Source: Candidatus Omnitrophota bacterium
Lineage (GTDB): Bacteria; Omnitrophota; Gorgyraeia; Zapsychrales; Fredricksoniimonadaceae
Direction: 5' to 3'
Length of the DNA: 64,000 bases
Assembly: GCA_963828495.1 (NCBI GenBank)
Contig: CAWHFJ010000009.1
Location: 31,166-95,165, forward strand
Shown in pieces: positions 47,501 to 53,500 of the stretch; the stretch's first letter is position 1; each line of letters opens with the position of its first letter. Made by a program: the position numbers.

Positions 47501-50500
47501 TCACTCCTGTTTCCCGCTCGCCGTTCAAAATGGCCCAGTTAATAGGCGCTGCCCCGCGGTATTTAGGCAAAAGAGACGCATGCACGTTGATGCAAAAGAT
47601 CTTGGGAATATCCAGAATCTCCTGCGTTAACAGGCGACCGAAAGCTACCACCACAAAAATATCGGCCTGGTAAGCTCTCAAGGTCTGGACGACGGTTTTA
47701 GATTTCAACGATGCCGGCTGCAGGCAAGGTATGTTGCTGCTCTAAAACCATTTTTTTAATAGGTGAGACGCCTATCTTCATGCCTCTGCCTTGCGGTTTA
47801 TCCACAGAGGTGACACAGCCAAGCACTTGGTGTCCGCAGGCGAGTATCTGCTCTAAATGCACAGCGGCAAAATCATCACTGCCGAAAAAAATAATTTTCA
47901 TTGAGCCCCCCGTAATCTGACCCACCCGTACGCTGAAATCATGGCTATACACGGCACCACAGGCACTCTGAAGCGATCTGTCACGATCGATGTCACGACA
48001 GACACCGACCCAAAAAGAAAATAGGCAATAATCAGCAACAAAAACTGATAGGTCATATTTCGTCCGGTCTTCACAACTCCCGCTATAAAGCCGACCATCC
48101 AGAAAACCATGAAGGGATAGGCCAAGACCTTGCCCATAGCGGTCAAAACAGGTGAACCGAAATATTTCAAAGATCCCGGCCTCGTCATGAAGGAAACCAG
48201 GGAACCGGAAACCATCTTAACATAATACCCTGCTAGCATAACCCCCTGCGGCAAGGGGTATTTCTCCCTCGTATAGCTCCCCTCTAACCCATAACCTGCA
48301 TTGACCTGGGCCACCGTAGAAAAAGCCGTCAGCTTGCAAGAGTTATAATTTCTGACCTGCCATGCCCCCAAAAGGCTAAACACAATGATGCCGAAAAGCA
48401 CAGCATGCATGATCGCTCTTCTTATATGGCGGGGCCCATGGGCATAAATAATAAAAAAAGTGACCGCGCCGCCTAAATAATAGCTCCCCGGACGGATATA
48501 CGCCAACGCCGCCATGATCAATGCTGATAAAACCAAAAACTTCACTTTCCCCTGCCGCAGATAAAGAACAAAACTCCCAATAAAAAGCGCCAGGCAAAAC
48601 ACGAATAACGTTTCTGTCAACAATCTTAACGAGCTCATCGTCGTCGGCAAATCAAATAAAAATAGCGTTGCGCTTAAAGCCGCGATTTTCGCATCAATGT
48701 GGAGAGCAATCAAATAAATGATCCAGGCGGTCAAAACAGTTACCATGACCTGCACAAAAATAACCCCGTTTAACGGGACATTGGCCACGTCATGGAGACC
48801 CGCTAAAAAGAGCGGATACCCCGGCGTACGAAACGTTTCCGGATGCAGCCGTCCGTCCGGGCCCGGCGAAGAGAAAGACCCCTTCTCATAAAGAGCATCC
48901 GCCAACTCTAAATACTTGAGACTATCAGGCCCATATTTACTGTTAGCGACACGCAGCGTACCAAAAACAAATAAAGCAAGCTTAATAAGGATGGCGAGGG
49001 CCATCAAAACCAGAAATATTTTCTTGACCTTCATTATGGATCCACGTTTAAGGTTACACAGACCCGGCTGGGGCGTTTGATTTGCCCTAACGCGGATTTT
49101 ATAAACGCCACGGCACCCCTGACCTGGTCTGTCTGCACCATCACATTAAAAAGAAACTGATCGCGCCTGCGGGCAACACCATCAGCTAAAGGAGGTATTA
49201 CAGCATAATGTGCCGGCGCCGTTTTTCTTAATTGATTATACACTTGGGCTGAAGTTTCTTGTGCAGATTTTTCAGACCTTGCGCGTAAGGTTATCTTGAC
49301 CCAATGCTTGAAAGGGCTGAATCCAAATTCTTTTCTCAGCCTCAATTCCTCGTCATAAAACCCTTGGCTATCATTGGCCTTAAGGCTTTTAACCACATAA
49401 TGATTGATGTCCCGGGTTTGGATAAACACACGCTCAAGCGTCATGTCGCTGATATGCCGCGCTAAGCGAAACGCATGGCAGGAAGAACGCATATCCAAAC
49501 GATTTAATTCCGCATCAAAATCAATGAACGCGGCCATGTGCACTTGCCATGTCCCTTGAAAACGTAAGACGGCTTGGGTGGAAACGAGAATATCGAAATC
49601 AGGAAGAGATTGCTTCGTCGCTTCGCTCCTCGCAATGACACCATCCTTGACAGATAATTTGGTAGCGCGTTCAAATGAAACAATCTTGGCCTGAGGAAAA
49701 TACTTTTTTAATTCTGCCTGTATTTGCTCGACCCCTATACCCCTCGAGCGCCAGTTGGATTTGCGGCATTGGGGGCAAATGAGCTCGCCGGAGGCAGTAC
49801 TCGTGCAATGGCGGCACAAATATTTTCCGGCTGACCTGGAATAAATGAGCGGACTGTCACAGCGGCTGCATTTGAGGACTGTCTCACAATCCCCACAGCG
49901 GGTGATCCGATAAGAGCCTCTGCGATTTAAAACCAAAATACTTTTCTTGCCCGCTTTCAAAGCCCCCTGAAGCGCATCATGCACCGGCGGGGACACCATC
50001 CCGGGCATGAATTTATAATTAGACAAATCAACCGTCGTTATAACGGGCGTATGGGGGGCTGTCTCATCGATGAGTTTGACCCGCCCCTCGTGGTTTAAAG
50101 CCATGAGTTCCGGCGACGGGGAAGTCCCAATAAAAGCCGTATCAAAGCCGTAAATCTTGGCGCGCATCAAAAGCACGTCACGCGTCTCATACATCGGCAT
50201 CTGCTCCTGTTTATAGGAGGCATCCTCATCATCCACCATGATAACGCAAGTCAAGTGCCCATCGCATTCAAAAACCGAAGAACGCGTGCCTATTTTGAGT
50301 GTCCCCTCACACTTGAGGTGTTTGGAAAGCGTCGCCGCTCTGAAAGCGTCGGGGACCAGGATCAAAAAACGGGGCGCCTGCAGGCTGCGATATCCGTCAA
50401 TAATTTCCTGAATCTTGGCCGCGTACCGGCCGACAGAAGACCTGTATAAAGAAACCAGCGGCTTGCCTTCCCGTCGTAGAGAAGGCTGCAAGTCTGCTTT

Positions 50501-53500
50501 AGACCTGTACATCGTGCTCAGGGCTTCCCCCAAGCTGCAGCCGTAATAAGCAGAAAAATCTTGCGCGAAGGCTAAATCCAACAGGTTAAACGCGGCGGAC
50601 GTGTCCACCAAAGCCTGTATCGATTTTAATCGGGGAATGGCGCTTTGTGCAAGCAGTCCCACCACAAAACCAATCCGGGACTTGGCGCCAAATGAAACTT
50701 TGACACGCATCCCTACCGCTATTTTTTCGGCTAAATGGGGAGGGATGTAATAATCAAATGGCCCGTCGATGGGCAAATCGAAGACAACCTGAGCAATCAT
50801 AGCAGCTCGATAATATCTGCAACGGCATTGGGCTTGGATAAAGCGCTTAACCGTTGACGCAAGGCATCCAGTTTCCGGGGATCGGCATTCCACTCATCAA
50901 TGGTTTCGATGATTCCAGACAAAGCGCTTGGCGCACTGGCCACTTCGTATGTTTTTAATACTTTGATATTATTGGCCTCTTGTCCGGGGATGGCGCTAAA
51001 AAATATCATCGGTAATTTTTTGACTAAGGCTTCCGATATAGAAAGCCCTCCGGGTTTAGTCACCATCACATCCGCTACGGACATCAATTCATCCATATTA
51101 TCAACCAGCCCCAGCACATGTACCTTCTGGCTTGAAAAACGTTTCAAGTGTTCATACAACACATGGTTCTGGCCACAAACAATGAGCAGTTGATAACCAC
51201 TAAGCAAATTGATTAATTGCTCAATCGGTCCCATGCCAAAAGAACCCGTGGCGATCAAAACGGTCAATTCCTGTGCTTTAACTTCCAATTTTTCCCTTAA
51301 AGAAGGCACATCCGCACACCGCGCAAATTTAGGGTCCGTGGGGATGCCCGTCACAAAAACTTGGGAGGCCGGCACGCCTAAGGCAATCAATTTATTTTTG
51401 GTATAATCACAAGCCGCTGTATAGATATCAATCCCTGCATTGATCCAAATGCGGTGCACGTCGAAATCCGTCACTACACATATAATTTTAGATTTGATTT
51501 GCCCACGGCGTTTAAGATAGGCGCAAACCTCTGCCGATAAAAATTGGGTCGTGATAATACAATCAAACTGCTGGTGTTGTAGAAATTGCTGCAGAGGCCT
51601 GGCATTAAAACCGTTATACAAACGCCGTACGGCGTGCACAACCCCCTGCATCCAGGGGAAATCCATCCATGCAAATAAAATCCCCCAAGCCCAAGGCATC
51701 CGGGTGACTAAAAACCCATAGGACGCAGGATAGGCCTTTTTAAAAAAAGGATTGGTGTACTCCAGCGCATCAACGAGCCGCACATCATGTCCGCCCTTAT
51801 TTTGCAAACCGTGAAAAACAGCCTCTGCGGCTTTTTTATGCCCGGCCCCGGCCGTTGCGTGAATGACTAGAATTTTCATTTTGGATTATCCTCACCGCTG
51901 CTTTCAAGTCCTTGACCACATAATCGGGCTTGACTGTCCATTGACGCATATACCGGCGATTTTCGTGACCCGAAAGTACAAAAATGGTCTTGCAGGCGGC
52001 ATTATGCCCGGTCTTAATGTCGCCTTCGGTATCTCCCACAAAAAAAGCCTTTTGCGCGTGGACAATGGTTTTATTGAGCATCTTAAGCGCTTTCTTTAAA
52101 AGCCCGATACCGGGTTTACGGCAGTCGCAACCGGCATCCGAACGGTGCGTGCAATAAAAACTTTTACGGATTTTGCCGCCGGCCTTTTCAACGGCTTTAA
52201 TCATACGGGCATCGATACGCTGTAATTTACCCAATGAATAAACGCCCTTGCCCACCCCGGCCTGGTTGGAGATGACGAAAATTTTATGTTGGCTCTGTGT
52301 TAAAGAACGGATCGCCTCTAAAGCCCCGGGAATAAAATGAAAATCCTTGACCTTGGTCACGTAACTGCCGTTGCCCGGGAACTTATTGATGACCCCATCT
52401 CTGTCGAGAAAAACAACTTTCATAGCGGTTTCGACTTTAAATCTTTGATATAGTAACCTTTTTCTTTGATCTCCCTGTATTTGCTGTAAGCGGCCAATTC
52501 GTGGAAAGCACTCAAAACAGCCGCCACAAAACCATAATACCCGTCTTTATATCCTTTTTTACCGATAAAACGCCGTCCAAACCGGTCTGCCGTCCGCCAC
52601 ATAGCCTTCCCCAAAGACATCCGACGTCCGTCCAAATACCATTTGACGGCCTCCAACGTGGAATAACGGTTGATTTTGGCAATAAAATTTTCCACATTGC
52701 TGAAACTGTAATGGATCGTCTTGGATTTTAAATGCCCGCCGCTATACCCCGGTGACACCCTGAATCCCGGATGAATAACATCATAATTCGCCTCTGACCA
52801 TTGTGCATAATTTTTATTATACAAACGAATATGCGGACTAGACCATCCCCCATGGTTTAACGGCACATCACCTAAATAATTGATTTGCGGCGCCCAGTAA
52901 GCGGCAATCTTAGGGTCGCCTTTTGTGACTACCCCCGCAATCTCATTTTTAAGCTCATCCGTCAGGCGCTCATCACAATCCAAAATCAGGATCCAATCAT
53001 TGTTGACCTTCGTCGCTCCAAAATTACGCTGTTTCCCCTCGATCTCCATAGGCCGGATGAATATTTTGTCGGTGTAGCGATGGGCGATAGCACAGGTATC
53101 ATCCGCACTCTCATCATCCACCACAACGATCTCATCGACCCAGCCATAGACACTCTCCAGGCAATCTTTAATACGATTGTGCTCATTTTTAGCAATAATA
53201 ACAACGCTTAGTGGTAAAGGCACAAGCCCCCTCCCTAACCCTCCCCACAAGGGGGAGGGGATATCTCACTATAATAAAGATTCTTTTAAAGCAGCTGCCA
53301 CGTCTTGGATCTGCTCATGGGTCATATGCGGAAACATCGGCAGGCTCATAATATCTCCAGCCACCGCTTCAGCCACGGGGAAATTGCCTTTTTTATAACC
53401 TAACTCCGCGTAAGCTTCCTGCAAATGCAAAGGAATAGGATAATGGATGAGCGCGCCGATGCCTTTGGCTTTCATGGCCTCGACGAACTCTGTCGCGATT

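What the first reader, a model, noticed from the sequence alone, without database searches (positions are those of the whole stretch)
49034..50800. PriA homologue without Walker A / DExH helicase motifs
The protein keeps the N-terminal 3'-DNA-binding domain, the two Cys4 zinc-binding knuckles and the C-terminal domain. At the Walker A position it reads RSSVGRYAAKI, with no GxxGSGKT. At the DExH position it reads MVDDEDASY. A helicase-inactive PriA has been reported in Deinococcus. Finding another lineage with an ATPase-dead primosome protein is notable for replication-restart mechanism.
Basis: partly seen in the sequence, partly recalled or inferred. Interest (0 to 1): 0.55.

Follow-up and report, generated by a model that had tools for sequence, protein, structure and literature searches.

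The report
ATPase-dead, trimmed PriA of Omnitrophota
This gene encodes the replication-restart protein PriA, which in a large branch of the uncultivated phylum Omnitrophota has lost its ATP-driven motor and one DNA-binding domain yet is still kept by selection, so it probably restarts replication as a passive fork-recognition scaffold.

Summary
Window 49034-50800 (-) encodes an intact 588-aa PriA homologue. It keeps the 3'-end-binding domain, the aromatic-rich loop, eight zinc cysteines and the C-terminal domain.

It has no Walker A P-loop (RSSVGRY). Motif II reads DDED, not DEEH.

It is neither a pseudogene nor an assembly artefact:
- At least 240 related proteins from metagenomes share the motif losses.
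- dN/dS is about 0.15.
- The AlphaFold model (pLDDT 91) matches PriA structures at TM 0.75-0.79.

Other Omnitrophota carry a motif-intact 666-aa PriA at the same chromosomal position (MGDG-synthase ... priA-fmt-galT-galT). The dead form is therefore a positional orthologue, not an extra copy. Intermediate sequences form an erosion series.

A PriA pseudohelicase is already known from Deinococcus-Thermus, so this is a second and more radical variant, not a new principle. A second canonical priA elsewhere in this genome could not be searched for, but positional orthology makes one unlikely. Biochemistry is untested.

The parts
49034..50800 (-). priA orthologue, 588 aa plus stop; ATPase-dead, winged-helix-less form
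   Evidence: ORF and translation. Pfam PF17764 + PF18074. PDB PriA E 4e-35. AF2 pLDDT 90.9 with Foldseek top hits PriA 8fak/6dcr/6dgd/4nl4, TMq 0.75-0.79.
50501..50800 (-). 3'-DNA-binding domain (aa 1-100), with pocket residues F15-D16-Y17 and K59
   Evidence: Pfam E 9e-23. Residues aligned to E. coli F16/D17/Y18/K61 are 99/93/100/83% conserved in 245 motif-less relatives.
50456..50500 (-). short linker (aa 101-115) in place of the ~96-aa winged-helix domain
   Evidence: MAFFT with E. coli PriA: 5 residues (≤15 in other relatives) align to the WH region, Ec 105-200.
50051..50455 (-). relic of helicase lobe 1 (aa 116-250), still a beta-alpha-beta RecA-like lobe in the model
   Evidence: AF2 secondary structure. 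Column conservation 0.62, similar to the other domains. 28 aa where E. coli has 56 between motifs Ia and Ib.
50423..50443 (-). Walker A relic RSSVGRY (aa 120-126): no GxxxxGK[ST], loop shortened by 4 aa
   Evidence: Column statistics: G/G/K/T are 100% in 44 motif-intact PriAs and absent in 245 motif-less ones.
50222..50248 (-). motif II relic CVIMVDDED (aa 185-193): DDED instead of DEEH
   Evidence: D190 is >=90% conserved in the close family.
50180..50218 (-). aromatic-rich loop / motif IIa SYKQEQMPMYETR (aa 195-207), retained
   Evidence: K 91%, Q 88%, P 100%, Y 99% in motif-less relatives, at least as conserved as in intact PriAs. In E. coli this loop contacts the fork junction (PMC5175346, PMC10175261).
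49766..49897 (-). cysteine-rich region with 8 Cys (C302, 305, 311, 314, 329, 332, 342, 345) for two zinc sites
   Evidence: Each Cys is 96% conserved in motif-less relatives.
49409..49471 (-). motif VI relic FRLARHISDMTLERVFIQTRD (aa 444-464): QxxGRxGR deleted, no arginine finger
   Evidence: The 5 columns of GRAGR are gaps in 92-95% of motif-less relatives.
49606..49639 (-). in-frame 34-nt arm of a widespread palindromic repeat, encoding (G)VIARSEATKQSL in a disordered loop of lobe 2
   Evidence: AF2 pLDDT <50 at aa 380-393.
49037..49315 (-). PriA C-terminal domain (aa 496-588)
   Evidence: Pfam PF18074 E 6e-11.
50797..51879 (-). upstream MGDG-synthase-like glycosyltransferase, translationally coupled (ATGA); conserved neighbour
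   Evidence: Pfam. Sequence. Present upstream of priA in 34/34 Omnitrophota loci and in loci with intact priA.
46979..47901 (-). fmt (methionyl-tRNA formyltransferase), the conserved downstream neighbour of priA; here broken by frameshifts
   Evidence: Pfam. tblastn in three frames. Intact and adjacent to priA in 31/34 relatives.

Best explanation
This is the orthologous priA gene of an Omnitrophota bacterium. It has evolved into a pseudohelicase: a protein that can no longer bind or hydrolyse ATP but is retained as a structure-specific fork-recognition and primosome-assembly scaffold.

**Shown here**
- The ATP site is dismantled: the P-loop is excised, the arginine finger is deleted, and the DExH histidine is lost.
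- The WH domain is absent.
- The PriA fold is kept.
- The 3'-OH pocket, fork-junction loop, zinc-binding CRR and CTD are conserved.
- The gene is under purifying selection.
- It sits in the same chromosomal slot as the intact priA of other Omnitrophota.

**Inferred**
- The aromatic-rich loop wedges at the junction.
- CRR, lobe 2 and CTD close around lagging-strand ssDNA, as in the E. coli PriA/PriB/fork structure.
- This complex recruits the replicative helicase, directly or through an unknown partner, without PriA-driven unwinding.
- Forks whose lagging arm is duplex would need another helicase or nuclease.
For: **Motif loss:**

**Fold:** AF2 pLDDT 90.9, pTM 0.89. Foldseek top nine hits are all PriA, including E. 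coli PriA delta-WH 6dcr, with TMq 0.69-0.79 (top five 0.75-0.79).

**Selection:** dN/dS is 0.065/0.435 (L035 vs L033) and 0.184/1.065 (window vs L003). The relic lobe 1 is as conserved as the other domains.

**Breadth:**
- More than 100 full-length relatives at 34-72% identity.
- 245 of 292 collected full-length sequences lack motifs I and VI.
- About 36 GTDB species genomes labelled Omnitrophota carry it, and all lack the motifs.

**Positional orthology:** the order HAD - MGDG_synth - priA - fmt - galT - galT holds for dead priA in 31-34 loci. The same order holds for intact 666-aa priA in CP070780.1 and Ga0265297_10000020.

**Erosion series:** GITASGKT > GITTAGRI > NTTAQAKT > SSDGSFRA > RSSVGR.

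**Functional surfaces kept:**

**Precedent:**
- E. coli PriA K230R/A supports PriA-PriB restart and DnaB loading without ATPase (PMC5778457, PMC10175261).
- D. radiodurans PriA lacks ATPase and helicase activity but binds forks and DnaB (PMC4504706).
Against: - No biochemistry: ATP binding, DNA binding and partner binding are all inferred from sequence.
- The rest of the genome could not be searched, so a second, intact PriA or a trans-acting ATPase partner is not excluded.
- The Walker B Asp (and Glu in most relatives) and the motif Ia 'LVPD' remain conserved without an obvious reason.
- E. coli PriA lacking the WH domain is impaired in vivo (my recollection of the paper behind PDB 6dcr, not read here), so the scaffold model must work without that contact.
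- No restart partner is encoded near the gene.
Confidence: 0.7

Rival explanations
1. Paralogue with a new job: the genome also has a canonical PriA elsewhere, and this protein is a PriA-derived DNA-binding factor (for example fork protection or a regulator of restart), not the restart initiator.
For: Motif-intact PriAs do exist in MAGs labelled Omnitrophota: 117 of 119 proteins have motifs I, II and VI. Only 64 kb of this genome was available, so the rest was not searched.
Against: Dead and intact genes occupy the same syntenic slot between MGDG_synth and fmt, which is what replacement of an orthologue looks like. No locus of +/-10 kb holds two copies. Intermediates link the two forms in one tree.
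Confidence: 0.1
2. Still an NTPase or helicase through non-canonical residues, or its motor is supplied in trans by a separate protein that docks on the relic lobe 1.
For: The Walker B Asp is >=90% conserved in the close family and Glu follows in most members. The relic lobe 1 is under as much constraint as the rest.
Against: The P-loop is physically shortened, with no Gly, Lys or Ser/Thr. Motif VI arginines are deleted. Motifs III and V are degenerate. In the wider dead clade the Walker B Asp itself varies (V/I/D). A single K230R change already kills the E. coli enzyme (PMC5778457).
Confidence: 0.07
3. Decaying pseudogene or non-functional relic.
For: Neighbouring genes in this window (fmt, galT-like, DegT) are broken by frameshifts. 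Motif erosion is progressive.
Against: The reading frame is intact over 588 codons. dN/dS is about 0.15. Hundreds of full-length relatives down to 30% identity show conserved domain-specific residues. Start and stop are translationally coupled to the neighbouring genes.
Confidence: 0.03
4. Assembly artefact: indel errors in this error-prone contig only make the motifs look absent.
For: At least three nearby genes show frameshifts that relatives lack.
Against: The window protein is colinear with independent relatives from many assemblies through the motif I, II and VI regions. The only low-identity stretches are loops that vary in the whole family.
Confidence: 0.01

Closest known systems
Deinococcus-Thermus PriA pseudohelicase (D. 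radiodurans PriA; Lopper et al. 2015, PMC4504706)
   Same: A PriA orthologue with non-consensus motifs I and II, kept by a whole lineage. For the Deinococcus protein, there is no ATPase or unwinding but fork and ssDNA binding and DnaB binding are retained, which is the working model here.
   Different: According to the paper, Deinococcus-Thermus proteins keep a recognisable P-loop with Lys->Arg. Here the loop is excised, motif VI is deleted, part of lobe 1 is lost and there is no WH domain. The phylum is different (PVC-group Omnitrophota), and an erosion series inside the phylum points to independent origin. No Deinococcus sequence was available for direct alignment.
E. coli PriA K230R/K230A/K230D (priA300 class)
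   Same: ATPase-dead PriA that still recognises forks and supports PriA-PriB-DnaT-dependent DnaB loading in vivo and in vitro (PMC5778457, PMC10175261).
   Different: These are engineered single substitutions in an otherwise complete six-domain protein. They depend on PriB and DnaT, which are restricted to some Proteobacteria and relatives. The helicase is still needed in E. coli for the PriA-PriC route.
E. coli PriA winged-helix deletion protein (PDB 6dcr)
   Same: Second-best structural match to the model (TMq 0.77), with the same five-domain layout lacking WH.
   Different: It is an engineered deletion with an intact motor. It is reported to alter structure-specific unwinding and impair function in vivo (my recollection; paper not held).
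Motif-intact, WH-less PriA of other Omnitrophota and of Elusimicrobiota (~660-670 aa; e.g. P0498 on CP070780.1, P0183)
   Same: Same chromosomal position, same lack of a WH domain, same ARL with Pro in place of E. coli W333, same CRR and CTD.
   Different: They keep GxxxxGKT, DEEH, GSAT and QVAGRAGR, and score for Pfam DEAD, ResIII and Helicase_C. The window protein does not.

Membership tests
PriA (primosomal protein N' / replication restart helicase; TIGR00595, PRK05580) | N-terminal 3'-DNA-binding domain with the 3'-end pocket (E. coli F16, D17, Y18, K61) | tested here: met
   PF17764 E 9e-23. F15/D16/Y17/K59 present and 83-100% conserved in relatives.
PriA (primosomal protein N' / replication restart helicase; TIGR00595, PRK05580) | Winged-helix domain between 3'BD and helicase lobe 1 | tested here: not met
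   5 residues (≤15 in other relatives) align to E. coli 105-200. Intact PriAs of Omnitrophota and Elusimicrobiota also lack it, so it is not universal.
PriA (primosomal protein N' / replication restart helicase; TIGR00595, PRK05580) | SF2 motif I, Walker A GxxxxGK[ST] | tested here: not met
   RSSVGRY, 4 aa shorter.
PriA (primosomal protein N' / replication restart helicase; TIGR00595, PRK05580) | SF2 motif II, DExH | tested here: not met
   DDED; family consensus DEED or DEDN.
PriA (primosomal protein N' / replication restart helicase; TIGR00595, PRK05580) | SF2 motif VI, QxxGRxGR arginine finger | tested here: not met
   Replaced by HISDMT with a 5-aa deletion.
PriA (primosomal protein N' / replication restart helicase; TIGR00595, PRK05580) | Cysteine-rich region with eight Cys inserted in lobe 2 | tested here: met
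   C302 to C345. The Pfam Zn_ribbon_PriA match is only weak (E 0.38).
PriA (primosomal protein N' / replication restart helicase; TIGR00595, PRK05580) | C-terminal domain PF18074 | tested here: met
   E 6e-11, aa 496-588.
PriA (primosomal protein N' / replication restart helicase; TIGR00595, PRK05580) | Overall PriA fold | tested here: met
   AF2 model pLDDT 90.9. Foldseek top nine PDB hits are all PriA, TMq 0.69-0.79, E down to 4e-43.
PriA (primosomal protein N' / replication restart helicase; TIGR00595, PRK05580) | Curated NCBIfam equivalog score cut-off | tested here: not met
   TIGR00595 scores 227.7 bits against a cut-off of 230.35, with the match starting at profile position 62. PRK05580 sub-models score 246 bits or less against cut-offs of 763 or more.
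PriA (primosomal protein N' / replication restart helicase; TIGR00595, PRK05580) | Orthology by genomic position (priA next to fmt) | tested here: met
   Same slot as intact priA in other Omnitrophota.
PriA (primosomal protein N' / replication restart helicase; TIGR00595, PRK05580) | DNA-dependent ATPase and 3'-5' helicase activity | not testable with these tools
   Predicted absent from the motif losses.
PriA pseudohelicase (as defined for Deinococcus-Thermus, PMC4504706) | PriA orthologue whose motifs I and II depart from consensus across a lineage | tested here: met
PriA pseudohelicase (as defined for Deinococcus-Thermus, PMC4504706) | No ATP hydrolysis and no duplex unwinding | not testable with these tools
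   Needs purified protein.
PriA pseudohelicase (as defined for Deinococcus-Thermus, PMC4504706) | Retained ssDNA and fork binding, and physical interaction with DnaB | not testable with these tools
   Only indirect support: DNA-contact residues are conserved.
PriA pseudohelicase (as defined for Deinococcus-Thermus, PMC4504706) | Common descent with the Deinococcus-Thermus proteins | not tested
   No Deinococcus-Thermus sequence could be fetched. The nearest intact relatives are Omnitrophota and Elusimicrobiota PriAs, which argues for an independent loss.

The most novel reading that the evidence does not exclude
In a large, diverse branch of Omnitrophota this five-domain, nucleotide-free PriA is the only PriA. 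That would make it a natural minimal restart initiator. ATP hydrolysis, the arginine finger and the winged-helix contact with parental DNA would all be dispensable for replication restart in free-living lineages. The conserved relic of lobe 1, together with CRR and CTD, would form the platform that recruits DnaB directly in bacteria lacking PriB, DnaT and PriC. The repeated, graded decay seen in several sublineages (and in at least one Patescibacteria MAG) would mean that loss of the PriA motor is a recurrent evolutionary outcome and not a Deinococcus oddity.
Probability: 0.5. Interest if true: 0.62.

Novelty: new variant of a known kind. Interest (0 to 1): 0.5.

Why it matters
[quoted passage not shown] Here a second and much larger radiation has gone further: it has excised the P-loop and the arginine finger and has no winged-helix domain, while keeping the 3'-end pocket, junction loop, zinc region and C-terminal domain under purifying selection.

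- It gives a natural minimal PriA that defines which parts are needed for fork recognition and primosome assembly.
- It provides a graded series of intermediates for studying how an enzyme becomes a pseudoenzyme.
- It offers a test case for how DnaB is reloaded in bacteria without PriB, DnaT or PriC.
- Annotation pipelines call these proteins 'primosomal protein N'' or 'hypothetical' without flagging the loss of activity.

Tried and rejected
1. **Phylum-wide claim dropped.** After I held that all Omnitrophota have the dead form. One search overturned this: 117 of 119 close relatives of P0233, many labelled Omnitrophota, have intact motifs. The claim is now restricted to a large subclade.
2. 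**Second priA in the same genome.** This is not possible with these tools.
3. **Direct alignment with D. radiodurans PriA.** No sequence was obtainable, so I relied on the description in PMC4504706.
4. **Actinobacterial PriA.** I recall that UniProt flags some of these as lacking helicase domains. Two literature searches and PMC3290774 gave nothing, so this is left as unverified memory.
5. **SSB-tail pocket residues.** The residue numbers I recalled did not match the E. coli sequence and two papers did not give them. I make no claim about SSB binding.
6. **Windgassen 2018 PNAS and Bhattacharyya 2014 PNAS** are not held.
7. **Hidden compensating frameshifts in the window's priA** were checked and rejected.
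8. **The NJ tree** uses simple distances and dead sequences are fast-evolving. I use it only for nearest-neighbour statements, not to count independent losses.

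
Full report
**1. The gene**

Window 49034-50800 on the minus strand is an intact ORF of 588 codons. The longer GTG start at 50893 is unlikely. The ATG at 50800 overlaps the stop of the upstream gene (CTATGATT), and relatives begin with the same MIAQVVFDLP. The TAA stop overlaps the ATG of the next gene.

**2. Check of the observation**

*Domain and profile matches*
- Pfam finds only PriA_3primeBD (aa 4-97) and PriA_C (aa 496-588). There is no DEAD, ResIII or Helicase_C match.
- NCBIfam TIGR00595 scores 227.7 bits, just under its 230.35 cut-off, and the match begins at profile position 62, beyond the Walker A part. All PRK05580 sub-models score far below their cut-offs.
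- phmmer against PDB sequences hits K. pneumoniae and E. coli PriA at E 4e-35 in two pieces: the 3'BD, and aa 153-556.

*Alignment with E. coli PriA* (fetched from NC_000913.3; alignments)
- Motif I: GVTGSGKT becomes SSVGR, 4 aa shorter.
- Between motifs Ia and Ib, 28 aa stand where E. coli has 56.
- Motif II: DEEH becomes DDED.
- Motif III: GSAT becomes GTSP.
- Motif V carries a 3-aa deletion.
- Motif VI: QVAGRAGR becomes HISDMT with a 5-aa deletion.
- The winged-helix domain (E. coli about 105-200) is replaced by a short linker.

*Retained*
- F15-D16-Y17 and K59, the 3'-end pocket.
- SYKQEQxPxY, the aromatic-rich loop.
- LNRRG (motif IV).
- Eight CRR cysteines.
- The CTD.

**3. Real and functional, not decay or artefact**

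*Breadth.* The word-indexed search returned more than 100 full-length relatives of 560-620 aa at 34-72% identity. All carry PF17764 + PF18074 only, and the named ones are 'Candidatus Omnitrophica/Omnitrophota'. An exhaustive phmmer search over 1.84 billion cluster representatives listed mostly 560-680-aa proteins. In the pooled set of 292 full-length sequences, 245 lack both GxxxxGK[ST] and GRxGR and 44 have both.

*Genomes.* A scan of GTDB species genomes found the family in about 40 MAGs titled Omnitrophota, or 'uncultured Planctomycetales' in one third-party (TPA) set of MAG assemblies. Every one of their PriA ORFs lacks the motifs. The Saccharibacteria, Margulisbacteria, Acidobacteriota, Capnocytophaga and Peregrinibacteria hits have them.

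*Selection.* Nei-Gojobori dN/dS is 0.15 (L035/L033) and 0.17 (window/L003). The relic lobe 1 has the same column conservation (0.62) as the other domains (0.64-0.74).

*Fold.* AlphaFold2 with the family alignment gives pLDDT 90.9 and pTM 0.89, with a beta-alpha-beta lobe 1 still predicted. Foldseek against the PDB returns only PriA structures as the top nine hits. These are 8fak_H, 6dcr_A (the E. coli WH-deletion protein), 6dgd, 4nl4 and 4nl8, at TMq 0.69-0.79. Mfd and other SF2 enzymes follow at TMq 0.35 or less.

*Assembly errors.* The window assembly has frameshifts in neighbouring genes. The priA reading frame, however, is colinear with independent relatives through all motif regions.

**4. 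Orthologue or extra copy?**

The window holds no second PriA. I first thought the dead form was phylum-wide. A search seeded with an intermediate (P0233) then returned about 120 proteins of 660-680 aa, many labelled Omnitrophota. They score for Pfam DEAD, Helicase_C and ResIII, and 117 of 119 have intact motifs I, II and VI. So intact PriAs exist in the phylum.

Their genomic context settles the relationship.
- In the closed 1.43-Mb genome CP070780.1 and in a 710-kb contig, the intact gene lies in the order PMT_2 - HAD phosphatase - epimerase - (GT2, only in CP070780.1) - MGDG_synth - UDG - priA - fmt - (CBS) - galT - galT.
- The dead gene lies in the order GT9 - DegT - GT2 - HAD - MGDG_synth - priA - fmt - galT - galT. 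MGDG_synth is upstream in 34 of 34 loci and fmt downstream in 31 of 34.
- The window has one extra PMT_2 gene between priA and fmt.

Same slot, same neighbours: the dead form is the positional orthologue. A second copy elsewhere is not excluded, but nothing supports one.

**5. An erosion series**

Aligned motifs run as follows:

| Sequence | Length / state | Motif I | Motif II | Motif VI |
|---|---|---|---|---|
| P0498, P0397 | intact Omnitrophota | GITASGKT | DEEH | QVAGRAGR |
| P0402 | early decay | GITTAGRI | DQEH | RMAGKTSGR |
| P0233 | early decay | NTTAQAKT | DEEH | KVAGIAEGE |
| P0218 | 662 aa, Omnitrophota | SSDGSFRA | EEED | KLSGKLAA |
| P0137 | 614 aa, Omnitrophota | NMPDKEAG | HECN | motif V/VI deletions |
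| window type | 570-600 aa | RSSVGR | DDED | deleted, plus lobe-1 deletion |

In a simple NJ tree the dead sequences sit next to intact Omnitrophota PriAs, which in turn sit next to Elusimicrobiota PriAs. Both intact groups already lack the WH domain, with 24-45 residues in that region. WH loss therefore came before, and is separate from, loss of the motor.

**6. How it most likely works**

In E. coli, fork specificity comes from four contacts (PMC10175261, PMC5175346):
- the 3'BD pocket holding the leading-strand 3' end;
- the lobe-1 aromatic-rich loop wedged at the junction;
- a pore made by CRR, lobe 2 and CTD around lagging-strand ssDNA;
- the WH domain on parental duplex.

ATPase-dead K230R/A PriA still supports PriA-PriB restart and DnaB loading (PMC5778457, PMC10175261). 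D. radiodurans PriA lacks ATPase and helicase activity but binds forks and DnaB (PMC4504706).

In the motif-less clade the pocket residues, the loop (P 100%, Y 99%, K 91%) and the eight cysteines (96%) are conserved, while every nucleotide-contacting motif is gone. My inference is an ATP-independent fork-recognition scaffold that hands the lagging-strand ssDNA to the replicative helicase. Any unwinding of a duplex lagging arm would be left to other enzymes. Partner identity is unknown, and no replication gene lies nearby.

**7. Comparison with what is known, and novelty**

The kind, a PriA pseudohelicase, is known from Deinococcus-Thermus. This case differs in phylum, in degree and in architecture:
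- the P-loop and arginine finger are excised and not merely substituted;
- part of lobe 1 is deleted;
- there is no WH domain.

It also comes with intermediates. No paper in the library links PriA and Omnitrophota beyond a nomenclature list, and only the Deinococcus work discusses PriA pseudohelicases.

I rate it a new variant of a known kind. It is of moderate interest to replication-restart specialists, more so if it proves to be the sole PriA.

Noticed in passing
window 49606-49639 (-), inside priA; also L019 10325-10352: A 34-nt sequence, GTCATTGCGAGGAGCGAAGCGACGAAGCAATCTC, sits in frame in a disordered loop of lobe 2 and encodes VIARSEATKQSL. The same 28-nt core lies at a different place in the priA of a 41%-identical MAG (L019, linker after the 3'BD), together with its inverted partner. 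It looks like a REP/RPE-like element that can insert in frame into protein loops.
   Followed up: partly
window 46979-47901 (fmt), 45956-46921 (galT-like), 53272-54372 (DegT-type aminotransferase): These three genes are each split over two or three reading frames. DegT has an out-of-frame middle third restored downstream. Relatives have them intact. The cause is either an indel-prone assembly or real pseudogenes, and fmt being hit favours assembly error.
   Followed up: partly
window 23661-26975 (+): A 1104-aa protein with three AAA+ modules (each with an AAA_lid_3) followed by a Peptidase_M41 domain. This is an FtsH-like protease with a triple ATPase, whereas ordinary FtsH has one.
   Followed up: no
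L038 3048-5213 (SOKK01000051.1, 'Patescibacteria group bacterium E44_bin74'): A 722-aa PriA that keeps a long N-terminal region. Motif I reads QSGNTKD, motif II DNEH, motif III GSAN, and there is no motif VI arginine finger. This is a possible independent ATPase-dead PriA outside Omnitrophota.
   Followed up: partly
L181 9313-10017; L183 9327-10001 versus window 50797-51879 / L002: In lineages with intact priA, a uracil-DNA glycosylase (PF03167) gene lies between MGDG_synth and priA. In the 34 loci with dead priA no gene family is found at that position, and MGDG_synth abuts priA directly.
   Followed up: no
window 47898-49034 (-): A 378-aa PMT_2-type membrane glycosyltransferase is inserted between priA and fmt, translationally coupled to priA (TAATG). 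In most relatives fmt follows priA directly, and a PMT_2 gene lies upstream in the loci with intact priA.
   Followed up: no
proteins P0231, P0236, P0242, P0245, P0246, P0254: A small set of 650-700-aa PriAs of unknown taxon with partly decayed sites, for example GKPGSGKM, or Walker A kept while motif VI is lost. They suggest further separate losses of the motor.
   Followed up: partly
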